64,000 bases of DNA. It comes from a virus (lineage: Duplodnaviria > Heunggongvirae > Uroviricota > Caudoviricetes). The stretch is from the IMG/VR virus record IMGVR_UViG_2778261510_000005; one strand, written 5' to 3'. The notes under the pieces were generated by a model that saw only the letters and a program-made list of their open reading frames with translations, did not search any database and was not told where the DNA came from. Every line of letters begins with the position of its first letter. The first letter of the stretch is position 1. Positions 1,938 through 62,837 of the stretch are shown here, piece after piece. Both the position numbers and the translations under genes were made by a program.

Positions 1938-1954
1938 AAATTTATTAGAGCAAT
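1938..1954. promoter_or_regulatory. C1-repressor-type operator (AAATTTATTAGAGCAAT), overlapping partial inverse copy CTAATAAATTT
   Basis: 17/17 match to reverse complement of P1 operator consensus ATTGCTCTAATAAATTT; lies between dmt 3' end and the tRNA cluster. Confidence 0.6.
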
Positions 1955-5459: not shown

Positions 5460-5476
5460 ATATTTATTAGAGCAAT
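5460..5476. promoter_or_regulatory. C1-repressor-type operator upstream of the uhr-hrdC-dmt operon
   Basis: ATATTTATTAGAGCAAT, 16/17 match to operator consensus. Confidence 0.6.
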
Positions 5477-16982: not shown

Positions 16983-17006
16983 AAGCTCCTACGGGAGCTT
17001 TTTTGT
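16983..17006 (+). terminator. rho-independent terminator ending the head-tail operon
   Basis: AAGCTCC-TACG-GGAGCTT hairpin followed by TTTTT. Confidence 0.6.
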
Positions 17007-17045
17007 GCTTAAATTATGCCGGTATAGCGAAATTTTGAGCATATT

Positions 17046-17342
17046 ATGGAAATTGATTTTTCATACTCTCCTGAAACGATAGAACGAAGATTCGAAATAA
17101 TTGGATGCAAAACTATTTCAGAGGAGCATTATTGGATTCTCTATGATGCCAATACATGGTTATGTGCCTTAGCAGAATGTCGGCCATCGTTATGTGCAGG
17201 GGAGGGAGGACTTCGACATAAGGTGCTGGCTACACTTGAAGTGAACACGTTACGATATTGGTGTGTCGAAATACTTAGGGATAACAAAGAATTACATTTA
17301 TTATTGCTGAATAAGTGTGCGCCTCTGCGCAGGAAAGCATAA
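17046..17342 (+). CDS. hypothetical small Cys-rich protein
   Basis: 98-aa ORF in AT-rich DNA, weak RBS. Confidence 0.3.
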   Translation: MEIDFSYSPETIERRFEIIGCKTISEEHYWILYDANTWLCALAECRPSLCAGEGGLRHKVLATLEVNTLRYWCVEILRDNKELHLLLLNKCAPLRRKA

Positions 17343-17508
17343 GAAAACCCAACCGCCATACTGGAATTATCAGAAGAATATGTGCGGAAAGTTATAGCTA
17401 GCTATTGAAAAGCTAAAGTAGATCGGTTAGATTTACCTTACTCATCTACCATGCGTAGAAAGAGCGATCGAACCCGATACATAGCAATATGTGTCGGGTT
17501 CAGCTTTT

Positions 17509-17973
17509 TTATGTCCCAAGTGCTCTTTTTCTGCTTTGTTTGAGTGTTCTGATTTTACTGTCATAGGTTACAACATAGGCTGTTTTGAGAAGCCAATAGT
17601 CTCTACGTGCGGATAGCACAACAACGTAGTTTTCACACTCGTTCCAGATTACCCACTCTTCAGTTGGTCCTCGTCTTTCAGACCAACATGATATATCGCA
17701 ATGGTCATAATTCCTTATCATATGCGCGATCCAGCGGATCCGCTTACACCGTTCAAGATCAGGTATTCGTTCTTCTTCTATTTTTCCCTCTGATACTAAA
17801 TGCCAAAATCCGAACTCTTTCCCATCATATTCCGGTGAATAACGTAATCGAACAGGGAGACCCTTAAACGTTATATTAGAGATTAAAATATCTTCTCTAA
17901 CAACATCATATACATCGTCTATATACTCTTGCCAACTTCCATTGAAGTACAATAAATCTGGCATTTGAAGCAT
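17509..17973 (-). CDS. small protein with nuclease-like motifs, second gene of an AT-rich two-gene operon
   Basis: ATG at 17973 overlaps upstream stop in TGATG arrangement; motifs PEYDGKEFGFWHLVSEGK and WVIWNECE reminiscent of Vsr / PD-(D/E)xK folds. Confidence 0.5.
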   Translation of the reverse strand: MLQMPDLLYFNGSWQEYIDDVYDVVREDILISNITFKGLPVRLRYSPEYDGKEFGFWHLVSEGKIEEERIPDLERCKRIRWIAHMIRNYDHCDISCWSERRGPTEEWVIWNECENYVVVLSARRDYWLLKTAYVVTYDSKIRTLKQSRKRALGT

Positions 17974-18677
17974 CAGCGAGCCTCCCACACGAAAATATTA
18001 AATTTACTTTCTGTTGGAAGAGTGCTTTTTAGTAACTCCCTGTTTGTATGTGATTTTATCCTGTTTATGACTTGGATTTTTCCCGCGTTGCTATTCATTC
18101 CTCGATGAACGTAGCCTAACGCACCAATGAAAAGATCCGTTAGCTGCAATTGTTGCACTTCATGAGATCGTATATGTTGAATTCTGTTTATCGACTCATG
18201 ATTGTAATCATAGCGATCATTGTGAAGAACTCCTCTTAATTTCTCAATTTTTTCAATACCTAAAGTATCTTTTATATCTAGGTAGATATTGTATGTGTTG
18301 TTACTTTCTATTATGTTTTTTAAGACATAAAAAAACATCTTATAATAGAAAGTATTGTGATCTTGATGGAATCGAGCATGGTCCAGTTGCTCTTTATCAG
18401 GAACAACAACACCTCTAAAGCGCAATGCTGGGTTGCTGAAGAAGTAATCTACGACCTCTAAGTAAAATTCAACTTTGGACGCAGATACTTTAGTCCACTT
18501 GATTTCGAAATCAGGTTTTAAATTGTGTTTTAATTTTAATCCCTTGATGTCTCTAGCAATTTTTTTTGTGATAGTGCCAGGACACCAAAGCGCACCCAAT
18601 ACCATGACTTTATTATGATCATTTAGTAGGTGACAGGATTCATCGCAGAATACATTAAATGTTCTTCGGTTCAACAT
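17973..18677 (-). CDS. hypothetical protein with N-terminal acidic DE motif, first gene of AT-rich operon
   Basis: 234 aa; N-terminus NVFCDESCH...; markedly AT-rich coding sequence relative to flanks. Confidence 0.55.
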   Translation of the reverse strand: MLNRRTFNVFCDESCHLLNDHNKVMVLGALWCPGTITKKIARDIKGLKLKHNLKPDFEIKWTKVSASKVEFYLEVVDYFFSNPALRFRGVVVPDKEQLDHARFHQDHNTFYYKMFFYVLKNIIESNNTYNIYLDIKDTLGIEKIEKLRGVLHNDRYDYNHESINRIQHIRSHEVQQLQLTDLFIGALGYVHRGMNSNAGKIQVINRIKSHTNRELLKSTLPTESKFNIFVWEAR

Positions 18678-18845
18678 GTTAACTCCACTTATTGTTAGGT
18701 AGAATTGTCCGTTAGTTGTTTATTAATTGCAATAATGGGACGTTCTGATTTGCTAACTACGTCATCTTACCAGGACGCCTATGAGTTTTCCTCATGGCAA
18801 ACTAGAGGTGTTGAAAGTATGCATGGTTATAATTAGAGCAATCTA

Positions 18846-47881: not shown

Positions 47882-47898
47882 AAATTAATTAGAGCAAT
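47882..47898. promoter_or_regulatory. C1-repressor-type operator between divergent ssb and lyz
   Basis: AAATTAATTAGAGCAAT, 16/17 to consensus. Confidence 0.6.
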
Positions 47899-60541: not shown

Positions 60542-61846
60542 CTATATAAACTTAGATATAATATCGTGAATCTGTTGTAGCGGGATATCTTCCATCTCAT
60601 TCTTAATAAGAGAGCGGTTAGATGCTGTCAGTGAAGGCCATTTTGTTTTCCAGGCTAGATATGCTCGCCATGAGCAGCCTGTTTCGTAAGGTTTATTCAT
60701 ATTAGTCATTGAGTGCTCAACCGCATGTATGTATTTTTTCTCAAAATTGGTTCCTTTTACTTCAAATAAACTACCGAAATAAATAAGCCATTTTGCCAAG
60801 TGTTCATACTGCTCCCATGCGCCAGGCTTTTTAGTAAGTTCTATTTTTTTATCTATTATATTACAAAAAACATTTAATACATTTTCATTATTCCAGCTAT
60901 ATCCAGATGATGAAATGGAGGAAATGATATGATAAAAAGAATCCTCTAGCTTCAAGAACTCTATTTTATACTCTCTTCCGTTTTTTATTACCGATTTGAT
61001 TGAGTGCCTCAATTTGTCTTTTATTTTTTTTGCTTCTGGAATTTTATCGTTAAGTTTTCTAAAGAAATCAGATACCTCTGTTTTATCTATAACCCTAACC
61101 CCATAGCAGGAAAAATAGTAATCTTTAATAGGTTGCAATAGTTCCCCTCGGGAAACAAGGAAAATATTGGAGGACATTACGTTGTCCCGTGAAAATACCT
61201 TATATTCATTTATAATAGCCTTTAGGTTCGCGTCACTTAGAGAATAGCCAAGGATAACAATAGTGTTTTCATGTAGAACTGTGCTTAGTTTATTAGAAAA
61301 GTAAGAATTACCATTTATAAATCTGAAATAATCCTCGCTAGTAACAACCATGTCTGATGGGGAGTCTATAGAACCGTGAACATGGTAGACTTTAACCTCA
61401 CAATTATATTTTGGAATTGGCAGGCCGGGGGTGATTGTACACGTTCGATTCTCTCCAGCCAGCTTTTCTGCTAACTTGTCATAATTTGTCGTAATTACTT
61501 TAAATGTGTTTTCTTTGAAAAAGTCTTGAATATATTCAATTGATGGATCAAGTTCGATTGAGGCTATGATTTTCTCAATCTCCTGGTAAATATTTTTCCC
61601 CGAAAGTATAAATTTTAGTGCAATAACCTGAGCAGCCTCTTCAAGGCTAAGGTCTTTTGCTTTTCCATCAGGAAATAATTCCTCTTTGAGTGAGTCACCA
61701 TCCTTCAACAAACCGCACAGTTGCTCCAATAAAGATTGCCAACTTGGGGCTTTATCATCAGAAACAGCCTTTGAAAATCCAGTGCCTGTAAGAAAGCACA
61801 GCCTATGTGTAGCTGCTGCATAGGCAATTTCTATATACTCGCTCAT
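60542..61846 (-). CDS. SIR2-family (ThsA-like SIR2_2) protein with uncharacterised alpha-helical C-terminal domain
   Basis: 434 aa; motif blocks FLTGTGFSKAVSDDKAPSWQSLL, KVITTNYDKL, VYHVHGSIDSP...EDY, IVILGYSLSDANL align to ThsA SIR2 blocks; ATG 61846 with GGAG RBS; coding sequence AT-rich. Confidence 0.8.
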   Translation of the reverse strand: MSEYIEIAYAAATHRLCFLTGTGFSKAVSDDKAPSWQSLLEQLCGLLKDGDSLKEELFPDGKAKDLSLEEAAQVIALKFILSGKNIYQEIEKIIASIELDPSIEYIQDFFKENTFKVITTNYDKLAEKLAGENRTCTITPGLPIPKYNCEVKVYHVHGSIDSPSDMVVTSEDYFRFINGNSYFSNKLSTVLHENTIVILGYSLSDANLKAIINEYKVFSRDNVMSSNIFLVSRGELLQPIKDYYFSCYGVRVIDKTEVSDFFRKLNDKIPEAKKIKDKLRHSIKSVIKNGREYKIEFLKLEDSFYHIISSISSSGYSWNNENVLNVFCNIIDKKIELTKKPGAWEQYEHLAKWLIYFGSLFEVKGTNFEKKYIHAVEHSMTNMNKPYETGCSWRAYLAWKTKWPSLTASNRSLIKNEMEDIPLQQIHDIISKFI

Positions 61847-62804: not shown

Positions 62805-62837
62805 ATTGCTCTAATAAATTTGATTTATTAGAGCAAA
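62805..62837. promoter_or_regulatory. head-to-head pair of C1-repressor-type operators
   Basis: ATTGCTCTAATAAATTT (62805-62821, 17/17) overlapping by 1 nt an inverted copy TGATTTATTAGAGCAAA (62821-62837). Confidence 0.6.

What the first reader, a model, noticed from the sequence alone, without database searches (positions are those of the whole stretch)
17471..18842. AT-rich, translationally coupled two-gene operon downstream of repL with nuclease-like motifs
Genes 17973-18677 and 17509-17973 (minus) share a TGATG stop-start overlap. They sit in a block that is clearly more AT-rich than the surrounding morphogenesis and replication genes. The first protein has an N-terminal acidic FCDESCH motif of the kind seen in DUF3800-type proteins (this family assignment is from memory and unverified). 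The second has PEYD...FGFWHLVSEGK and WVIWNECE motifs reminiscent of Vsr-like or PD-(D/E)xK endonuclease cores. A degenerate operator-like site (18826-18842) lies just upstream. These may correspond to the uncharacterised replication-linked genes that follow repL in P1. Either way the function is unknown, and the motifs suggest a nucleic-acid-targeting exclusion or defence module.
Basis: partly seen in the sequence, partly recalled or inferred. Interest (0 to 1): 0.6.

Follow-up and report, generated by a model that had tools for sequence, protein, structure and literature searches.

The report
P1 rlfA-rlfB: candidate two-nuclease defence pair
These two overlapping genes are the long-known but uncharacterised rlfA and rlfB genes of a P1-like phage-plasmid; they are dispensable, horizontally acquired cargo that matches an untested catalogued anti-phage candidate (PDC-M04), and there is no sign that they work in replication.

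Summary
Two minus-strand genes (17973-18677, 234 aa; 17509-17973, 154 aa) share a TGATG overlap. They lie in a low-GC block (0.37 against 0.48 for the window), downstream of repL and of a C1 operator at 18826-18842.

They are rlfA/rlfB of phage P1 (97% nt identity), rapA/rapB of P7, and 99.9% identical to phage JL22. The operator is P1's annotated Orlf (Op55).

Both proteins hit PADLOC candidate PDC-M04 (A 2e-95, B 4e-51). The pairing held in 79 of 80 loci from many phyla; the 80th is cut by a contig end. The genes usually overlap. At least 36 of the 80 pairs sit beside type I restriction-modification genes, often between hsdS and hsdR.

The genes are non-essential in P1 and missing from some P1-like phages. 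The best reading is a mobile nuclease-based defence or exclusion module; its mechanism is untested. The entity is already known and catalogued, so interest is modest.

The parts
17973..18677 (-). rlfA (P7 rapA): 234-aa DUF3800 protein with a predicted RNase HII/H2-like nuclease fold. Invariant D12, E13, D134 and D181 are the candidate DEDD site. C11/C15/H16/C32 are also conserved.
17509..17973 (-). rlfB (P7 rapB): 154-aa obligate partner protein in no curated family. Its alpha/beta core weakly resembles RelE/colicin D-type RNase toxins. Conserved residues are P5, G12, Y22, F56, H58, R69, R75 and W97.
18826..18842 (-). C1 repressor operator, corresponding to P1 Orlf (former Op55) and P7 Op(rap). 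It lies immediately after the repL stop codon.
   Evidence: Position-for-position match to the annotated protein_bind features in AF234172 and AF503408. The exact 11-nt operator core occurs 5 times in the window.
18704..18732 (-). Weak sigma-70 promoter-like site, TTGCAA-17 nt-GACAAT, corresponding to P1's predicted PrlfA. It lies about 95 bp downstream of the operator and about 25 bp upstream of the rlfA ATG.
   Evidence: Coordinates transferred from the P1 annotation with an offset of 14900. Sequence read. It falls below the threshold of the consensus scan, so it remains a prediction only.
17470..17501 (.). A 14-bp-stem hairpin between the convergent genes rlfB and pmgF. It is a canonical intrinsic terminator on the + strand (T-run follows) and has an A-run before it on the - strand, so it is probably a bidirectional terminator that ends the rlfAB transcript.
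   Evidence: Terminator scan; sequence.

Best explanation
**What it is.** The region is the rlfA-rlfB operon of a P1-like phage-plasmid.

**Shown**
- It is a two-gene, translationally coupled cassette.
- It is low in GC, dispensable, and variably present among P1-like elements.
- The same gene pair occurs across many bacterial phyla. It is typically wedged inside restriction-modification operons or placed at prophage ends.
- It corresponds to the catalogued but untested PADLOC candidate PDC-M04.
- RlfA has an RNase HII/H2-like fold with an intact set of invariant acidic residues.
- RlfB is a fast-evolving small partner that is always encoded directly downstream.

**Inferred**
- The two proteins act together as a nuclease-based defence or exclusion module and do not serve P1 replication.
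- RlfA is a Mg2+-dependent nuclease or sensor for RNA:DNA hybrids, or for structured nucleic acid made by an invader.
- RlfB is either a RelE/colicin-D-like RNase effector or a specificity/regulatory subunit. Its conserved His58/Arg69/Arg75 cluster is the candidate functional site.
- The outcome would be degradation of invader intermediates or abortive shut-down of translation.
- In P1 the cassette lies behind a C1 operator, and no terminator was found between it and repL. It is therefore probably expressed mainly on derepression or early in infection, together with kilA-repL.
For: - **Identity:** (97-99.9% nt identity to P1, P7 and JL22; annotation and synteny).
- **Defence candidate:** PADLOC PDC-M04A E 2.2e-95 and PDC-M04B E 3.5e-51. 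PDCs are embedding-derived, untested candidates (bioRxiv 10.1101/2024.01.29.577857).
- **Independent replication of the embedding:**
  - Between hsdS and hsdR in Methylomonas and a Nitrospirota MAG, and between hsdM and hsdR, next to an RT and a pAgo, in Algoriphagus.
  - 36 of 80 loci have type I hsd genes on the same strand. Often the A start overlaps the hsdS stop and hsdR follows B.
  - In the other 44 loci, nearest neighbours match ResIII in 7 cases, N6_N4_Mtase in 4, Eco57I and MmeI methylase domains in 2 each, and integrase in 2.
  - In Enterobacter the pair sits next to a prophage integrase.
- **Obligate pairing:** a B homologue lies directly downstream of A in 79 of 80 loci; the exception is cut by a contig end. 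The A-stop to B-start gap is -4 in 26 loci, -1 in 16 and -8 in 8. A and B identities correlate (r = 0.50). A is more conserved than B in 98% of sequence pairs (0.58 against 0.40).
- **RlfB fold:**
- **Dispensable accessory:** CRISPRi scores rlfA and rlfB as non-essential in P1 (PMC10695390). rlfA-rlfB-pmgF is a low-GC variable region of P1-like elements (PMC9603915; PMC6906374). The pair is absent from RCS47 and phi456.
- **Regulation:** operator; the only terminator-like site found lies after rlfB; induced early in P1vir infection (bioRxiv 10.64898/2025.12.28.696737).
Against: - No experiment shows defence, toxicity or nuclease activity for this pair or for any PDC-M04 member. Two literature searches found none.
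- Association with restriction-modification operons and prophage ends is also typical of selfish addiction modules.
- The DEDD assignment in RlfA rests on secondary-structure position. I could not inspect a residue-level superposition.
- Control by C1 implies low expression in the lysogen, which is unusual for a prophage gene meant to protect its host.
- A nuclease acting on RNA:DNA hybrids would have to spare P1's own transcription-activated oriL.
Confidence: 0.55

Rival explanations
1. Replication-linked function, the original P1 naming. RlfA would be an RNase H-like enzyme that processes the transcript or R-loop that activates oriL inside repL, or removes primers, with RlfB as a cofactor.
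For: The genes lie immediately downstream of repL/oriL, and no terminator was detected in between. RlfA has an RNase H2-like fold. Transcription is early, together with repL.
Against: The genes are non-essential for P1 plaque formation under CRISPRi. They are missing from the P1-like phages RCS47 and phi456, which keep repL, and are deleted or replaced in other P1-like plasmids. None of the fetched non-P1 loci whose genes were annotated or scanned showed a replication module. There the neighbours are mainly restriction-modification genes, integrases and a few housekeeping genes.
Confidence: 0.1
2. A toxin-antitoxin or addiction module. One protein, perhaps the RelE-like RlfB, would be a growth-arresting RNase and the other would neutralise it. 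The main role would be stabilising the P1 plasmid prophage, or the restriction-modification island, and not stopping phages.
For: The arrangement is a two-gene overlapping operon of small proteins. RlfB shows structural resemblance to type II toxins. The pair is mobile and sits in restriction-modification operons and prophage ends, where toxin-antitoxin modules also accumulate.
Against: The upstream, supposed antitoxin RlfA is the larger protein and by far the more conserved one, with an intact enzyme-like active site. It has no DNA-binding domain, which is atypical for type II antitoxins. P1 already carries phd-doc (named among the conserved P1 genes in PMC9603915). The fold evidence for a toxin is weak. 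Many toxin-antitoxin modules are themselves abortive-infection systems, so this rival overlaps with the best explanation.
Confidence: 0.2
3. A phage counter-defence or host-takeover nuclease. It would be expressed early in the lytic cycle to destroy host immune nucleic acids (retron msDNA, CRISPR R-loops) or competitor genomes.
For: Early lytic, C1-controlled expression. An RNase H-like fold would suit RNA:DNA hybrid substrates.
Against: Most homologues are chromosomal and are embedded, co-oriented and often translationally coupled, within the host's own restriction-modification operons. That placement argues for a role on the defending side.
Confidence: 0.05

Closest known systems
Phage P1 rlfA/rlfB (GenBank AF234172) and phage P7 rapA/rapB (AF503408)
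   Same: Orthologues. They share 97.2% and 98.5% nt identity over 1.5 kb, the same lengths (234 and 154 aa), the same synteny (kilA-repL-operator-rlfA-rlfB, convergent with pmgF) and the same C1 operator.
   Different: Nothing of substance. The window is closest to phage JL22 (99.9%). The names 'replication-linked' and 'replication-associated' are positional guesses with no functional data.
PADLOC phage defence candidate PDC-M04 (Payne, Hughes, Fineran and Jackson, bioRxiv 10.1101/2024.01.29.577857)
   Same: Both proteins match the A and B models nearly end to end (E 2.2e-95 and 3.5e-51). I independently reproduced the embedding of the pair in type I restriction-modification operons.
   Different: PDC-M04 is a prediction only, with no phenotype or mechanism published (no paper mentions PDC-M04). 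Here the pair is on a phage-plasmid, stands alone without flanking restriction genes, and lies behind a phage repressor operator.
DUF3800 effectors of type VII retrons and the TPR-DUF3800 accessory proteins of Cas12a2, Cas12a3 and type VI-F CRISPR loci
   Same: The same Pfam domain, with the N-terminal DE motif and the C-terminal QxxD motif, a predicted RNase H2-like fold, and a link to immunity loci.
   Different: In the window there is no reverse transcriptase, no Rfam-detectable ncRNA, no TPR domain and no CRISPR. The partner is the RlfB family instead. RlfA keeps the Q of QxxD (Q178-L-T-D181), which the retron-associated clade is reported to lack.
RNase HII/H2 and RNase HIII
   Different: Sequence identity is only 7-13%, and there is no sequence-level match to any PDB chain. 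RlfA has an extra conserved Cys/His cluster (C11, C15, H16, C32) and a C-terminal extension. Its substrate is unknown.
PrrC anticodon nuclease embedded in the EcoprrI type I restriction-modification operon
   Same: PrrC is likewise a small nuclease gene found almost exclusively embedded in type I restriction-modification systems. From my own knowledge, not checked here, prrC lies between hsdS and hsdR, the position many PDC-M04 pairs occupy. This suggests a comparable role guarding the restriction system.
   Different: There is no sequence or domain relationship. PrrC is a single ABC-ATPase-like protein. The P1 copy has no adjacent type I restriction-modification genes. The analogy is positional only.
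RelE/YoeB/HigB type II toxins, the colicin D tRNase domain and CdiA-CT toxins (BECR-fold RNases)
   Different: The scores are in the grey zone. Foldseek finds nothing significant, and there is no profile similarity. RlfB has an extra N-terminal helix. Its conserved residues have not been mapped onto the toxins' active sites.

Membership tests
P1 rlfA/rlfB orthologous operon | High nucleotide identity and conserved synteny downstream of repL, with the Orlf (Op55) C1 operator | tested here: met
   97.2% identity to P1, 98.5% to P7 and 99.9% to JL22 over 1501 nt. Features map one-to-one.
Pfam DUF3800 (PF12686) | Profile score above the gathering threshold | tested here: met
   53.1 bits against a cut-off of 21, covering residues 8-189 and profile positions 1-148 of 149.
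Pfam DUF3800 (PF12686) | N-terminal DE motif and C-terminal QxxD motif, as described in PMC7736814 | tested here: met
   D12-E13 and Q178-L-T-D181 are present. D12, E13 and D181 are at least 95% conserved in 79 sequences (motif definition).
PADLOC PDC-M04 candidate system | Adjacent genes matching the M04A and M04B models | tested here: met
   E 2.2e-95 (residues 5-233 on profile 3-228 of 232) and E 3.5e-51 (residues 3-150 on profile 5-161 of 167). The genes overlap by 1 nt.
PADLOC PDC-M04 candidate system | Protection against phage infection | not testable with these tools
   No experimental data were found.
RNase H-like superfamily, RNase HII/H2 type (RlfA) | RNase H fold | tested here: met
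RNase H-like superfamily, RNase HII/H2 type (RlfA) | Four catalytic carboxylates (DEDD) at equivalent structural positions | tested here: inconclusive
   Invariant D12, E13, D134 and D181 lie at the end of strand 1, the end of strand 127-133 and in helix 175-192. No residue-level superposition was available.
RNase H-like superfamily, RNase HII/H2 type (RlfA) | Cleavage of RNA in RNA:DNA hybrids | not testable with these tools
   This needs a biochemical assay.
RelE/colicin D (BECR) RNase toxin fold (RlfB) | Shared fold | tested here: inconclusive
Type II toxin-antitoxin module | One product is toxic alone and is neutralised by the other | not testable with these tools
   Only the operon architecture is compatible with this.
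Type VII retron (RT plus ncRNA plus DUF3800) | An adjacent reverse transcriptase and an msr/msd ncRNA | tested here: not met
   No RT ORF lies next to rlfAB. There is no Rfam match at E <= 1 in 17000-19800. Only 2 of 80 related loci have an RT nearby.

The most novel reading that the evidence does not exclude
P1's classical 'replication-linked' genes would in fact be a two-nuclease immune module. An RNase H2-like sensor nuclease (RlfA) would recognise RNA:DNA hybrid intermediates of an invading replicon, or the loss of a partner restriction complex. It would then license a colicin-D/RelE-like RNase (RlfB) to cut tRNA or mRNA. This would be a two-protein functional analogue of the PrrC guard of type I restriction systems, carried here by a phage-plasmid and switched on when the C1 repressor is lost.
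Probability: 0.2. Interest if true: 0.65.

Novelty: already known. Interest (0 to 1): 0.33.

Why it matters
If rlfAB does defend, a gene pair that has sat unexplained in the P1 genome since 2004 becomes an immune module. It would be directly testable in one of the best genetic systems available. It would also validate PDC-M04, a widespread candidate: the B family alone has about 1,800 cluster representatives at 50% identity across many phyla. And it would give the first functional handle on the DUF3800 nuclease domain, which also accompanies type VII retrons and Cas12a2, Cas12a3 and type VI-F CRISPR loci. It would further support the view that the low-GC variable regions of P1-like phage-plasmids are defence cargo slots; a SIR2-like gene sits in another such block of this window. 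Even so, the locus itself is ordinary for a P1-like element. Both the annotation and the candidate-defence label already exist.

Tried and rejected
**The PD-(D/E)xK / Vsr idea for RlfB was rejected.** The model is confident and the fold differs. The motif residues are not conserved.

**Sequence-level searches for RlfB gave nothing useful.**
- Pfam and NCBIfam found nothing, even at E = 10 over 25 family members.
- A profile search against PDB sequences gave only E about 1.3 to chains labelled 'Antitoxin'.

**A search for domain fusions gave no functional clue.** The exhaustive profile search over 1.84 billion representatives found 1790 hits. The top 150 are almost all stand-alone proteins of 150-190 aa.

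**No DUF3800-associated ncRNA was found.** An Rfam scan of 17000-19800 at E <= 1 returned nothing. In other genomes the pair is packed too tightly between hsdS and hsdR to leave room for one.

**The replication function was considered and down-weighted**, because the genes are dispensable, absent from repL-bearing relatives, and found elsewhere in non-replication contexts.

**Database names were rejected.** The names 'oxidoreductase' (NCBI) and 'replication protein' (PHROG 16230) for RlfB homologues have no support.

**Not accessible.** I could not open Lobocka et al. 2004 (PMC523184) or the 2026 preprint 10.64898/2026.08.25.746378, which mentions DUF3800.

Full report
**1.

The ORF listing and the sequence itself show a 234-codon ORF at 17973-18677 (-) and a 154-codon ORF at 17509-17973 (-). 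They are joined by TGATG, so the stop codon of the first overlaps the ATG of the second by one base. A GGGAGG ribosome-binding site lies 7 nt upstream. A longer reading from GTG 17988 is possible, but homologues begin at ML.MP, which favours the ATG.

GC content of the two genes is 0.368, against 0.481 for the whole window. Only 1.35% of equally long windows are as low. The site at 18826-18842 reads ATTGCTCTAATTATAAC. Its first 11 bases are the exact core shared by four other sites in the window.

**2. Identity**

The 1.5-kb stretch is 99.9% identical to phage JL22, 98.5% to P7 (rapA, rapB) and 97.2% to P1 (rlfA, rlfB). Gene order is that of P1: kilA, repL, operator, rlfA, rlfB, then convergent pmgF, bplB, pmgG, 21, 22, 23. 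The operator-like site coincides with P1's annotated 'monovalent C1-controlled operator Orlf; former Op55'.

The P1 and P7 names ('replication-linked', 'replication-associated') are positional. The GenBank notes say only 'possibly associated with lytic replication'.

**3. RlfA**

Pfam places RlfA in DUF3800 (53.1 bits against a cut-off of 21). The family is large: 5364 hits in the word-indexed search. It is also remarkably conserved, at about 50% identity to copies in Bacteroidota, Nitrospirota, Chloroflexota, Cyanobacteria, Acidobacteriota and others.

- then Argonaute PIWI and Cas9 RuvC domains

D134 ends strand 127-133. D181 (Q178-x-x-D181) lies in helix 175-192. I infer that these are the DEDD carboxylates of an RNase H-type active site, but I could not inspect a residue-level superposition. 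Published work reached the same fold assignment for other DUF3800 proteins (PMC7736814; PMC10910872; PMC12669027).

**4. RlfB**

RlfB matches no Pfam or NCBIfam family. An exhaustive profile search finds 1790 cluster representatives, almost all of them stand-alone proteins of 150-190 aa. The model is confident (pLDDT 91.8). It consists of an N-terminal helix, a short strand, helices at 54-60 and 73-87, a four-stranded antiparallel sheet (94-134) and a C-terminal helix.

Foldseek finds nothing significant, although HigB1 and colicin D appear at ranks 4 and 12. Profile comparisons are empty. I therefore treat 'RelE/colicin-D-like core' as a weak lead.

Across 79 sequences the residues conserved at 95% or more are P5, G12, Y22, F56, H58, R69, R75 and W97. 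At 85% or more, D72, R78, W81, Y116 and R123 are added. A His/Arg/Tyr set of this kind would suit a metal-independent RNase or a phosphate-binding surface.

**5. The two genes are an obligate pair**

One scan of species-representative genomes returned 80 loci encoding RlfA relatives. In 79 of them an RlfB-profile hit lies directly downstream on the same strand. The exception is cut by a contig end.

The gap from the A stop to the B start is -4 in 26 loci, -1 in 16 (as in this window), -8 in 8 and +2 in 9. Translational coupling is therefore a conserved trait. A and B identities correlate (r = 0.50). A is more conserved than B in 98% of sequence pairs (mean 0.58 against 0.40). PADLOC's structure mirrors this, with two A models against at least twelve B models.

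**6. Context elsewhere**

- In Methylomonas and a Nitrospirota MAG the pair lies between hsdS and hsdR of a type I restriction-modification operon.
- In Algoriphagus it lies between hsdM and hsdR, next to a reverse transcriptase, and a pAgo gene is nearby.
- In Enterobacter ludwigii it is the last cargo next to a prophage integrase.
- With only three seed sets, phmmer finds hsdM/S/R on the same strand in 36 of 80 loci. Often the A start overlaps the hsdS stop and hsdR follows B.
- Among the other 44 loci, the nearest neighbours include ResIII (7), N6_N4_Mtase (4), Eco57I and MmeI methylase domains (2 each) and integrases (2), besides a minority of housekeeping genes.

This reproduces independently the reasoning behind PADLOC's PDC-M04, which both window proteins match strongly. 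PDCs were defined by 'guilt-by-embedding' and were not tested (bioRxiv 10.1101/2024.01.29.577857).

**7. Context in P1-like elements**

CRISPRi scored rlfA and rlfB as non-essential in P1 (PMC10695390). The rlfA-rlfB-pmgF segment is one of eight low-GC variable regions of P1-like phage-plasmids (PMC9603915). It is deleted or replaced in several of them (PMC6906374). RCS47 carries a transposase there, and phi456 carries almost nothing. About 100 Escherichia, Salmonella and Shigella plasmids carry the pair at 95% identity or more.

No terminator-like site separates repL from rlfA. The only one is the hairpin at 17470-17501 after rlfB. P1's predicted PrlfA (TTGCAA-17 nt-GACAAT, window 18704-18732) is weak and lies about 95 bp downstream of the operator. 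A P1vir transcriptome groups rlfA/B with early replication genes.

I infer that rlfAB is mostly expressed with kilA-repL on derepression, with Orlf acting as a second C1 checkpoint. This is not shown.

**8. Mechanism and rivals**

My best explanation is a mobile, two-protein, nuclease-based defence or exclusion module (confidence about 0.55). RlfA would be an RNase H2-like nuclease or sensor. RlfB would be its co-evolving partner, either an RNase effector or a specificity subunit. Confidence in that specific two-nuclease division of labour is lower, about 0.2.

The rivals are:
- a toxin-antitoxin or addiction module (0.2), which overlaps with abortive infection
- the original replication-linked role (0.1), weakened by dispensability, by absence from repL-bearing relatives, and by the lack of any replication module in the non-P1 loci examined
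- a phage counter-defence nuclease (0.05), weakened by the chromosomal, restriction-operon-embedded majority

**9. Comparison with what is known**

The locus is a member of the P1 rlfAB orthologue group, of Pfam DUF3800 and of PADLOC PDC-M04; the sequence-based defining features of each were tested and met. It works like an RNase H-type enzyme only by fold inference. It is not a type VII retron, since there is no RT and no ncRNA. RlfB is not a PD-(D/E)xK or Vsr nuclease. Its placement in type I operons parallels PrrC, which is also found embedded there, but there is no homology.

**10. Verdict**

The entity is already known. The genes have been annotated since the P1 genome was published, and the family is already listed as a defence candidate. 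This analysis adds four things:
- the explicit link between P1 rlfAB and PDC-M04
- confident models for both proteins
- refutation of the PD-(D/E)xK idea
- quantified pairing and embedding

Interest is modest at 0.33. The function remains open, and P1 makes it easy to test.

Noticed in passing
window 60542-61846 (-): A 434-aa ORF in another low-GC block (minimum 0.346) carries a SIR2_2 domain (Pfam E 2.1e-23). It matches PADLOC PDC-S25 (E 1.8e-24) and ThsA-like models (E 7.6e-18). This is a second candidate defence gene in a variable region of the same P1-like element.
   Followed up: partly
window 22554-23618 (+): Two ORFs sit in a low-GC block between the c4/icd region and pmgC, where P1 carries simABC. 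One is a 173-aa lipoprotein-like protein with a weak, sub-threshold TraT match. The other is a 179-aa DUF5384 protein. They correspond to JL22 gp41 and gp40.
   Followed up: partly
window 1938-1954, 5460-5476, 20590-20606, 47882-47898, 62805-62836: Further C1 operator cores (ATTGCTCTAAT or TTGCTCTAAT) occur at these sites. They include the site upstream of kilA (the position of Op53) and an overlapping inverted pair at 62805-62836.
   Followed up: no
window 17046-17342 (+): pmgF (98 aa; PHROG 7349, unknown function; no Pfam, NCBIfam or PADLOC match) belongs to the same low-GC variable block. It is convergent with rlfB and shares the hairpin at 17470-17501.
   Followed up: partly
L006 8470-9978 (= L017), Algoriphagus pacificus: A 502-aa reverse transcriptase gene ends 23 bp upstream of the DUF3800 gene. 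All of it lies inside a type I restriction-modification operon, with a pAgo gene nearby. L026 also has an RT 1.2 kb downstream. This could be an RT-linked variant or simply two stacked systems.
   Followed up: no
L008 10699-10872 (Methylomonas sp. 11b); L033 884-1381: The partner gene is called at only 57 aa in L008 and is split into two 80-aa ORFs in L033. These may be decayed copies or assembly errors.
   Followed up: no
RlfB homologues P0003, P0007, P0009, P0012, P0016; PHROG 16230: NCBI names several RlfB homologues 'oxidoreductase', and PHROG labels the family 'replication protein'. Nothing in sequence, fold or context supports either name.
   Followed up: yes
RlfA residues C11, C15, H16, C32 (window 17973-18677): A conserved Cys/His cluster lies next to the DE motif. 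C15, H16 and C32 are invariant, and C11 is conserved in at least 95% of 79 sequences. It could be a structural or regulatory metal site that canonical RNase HII lacks.
   Followed up: no
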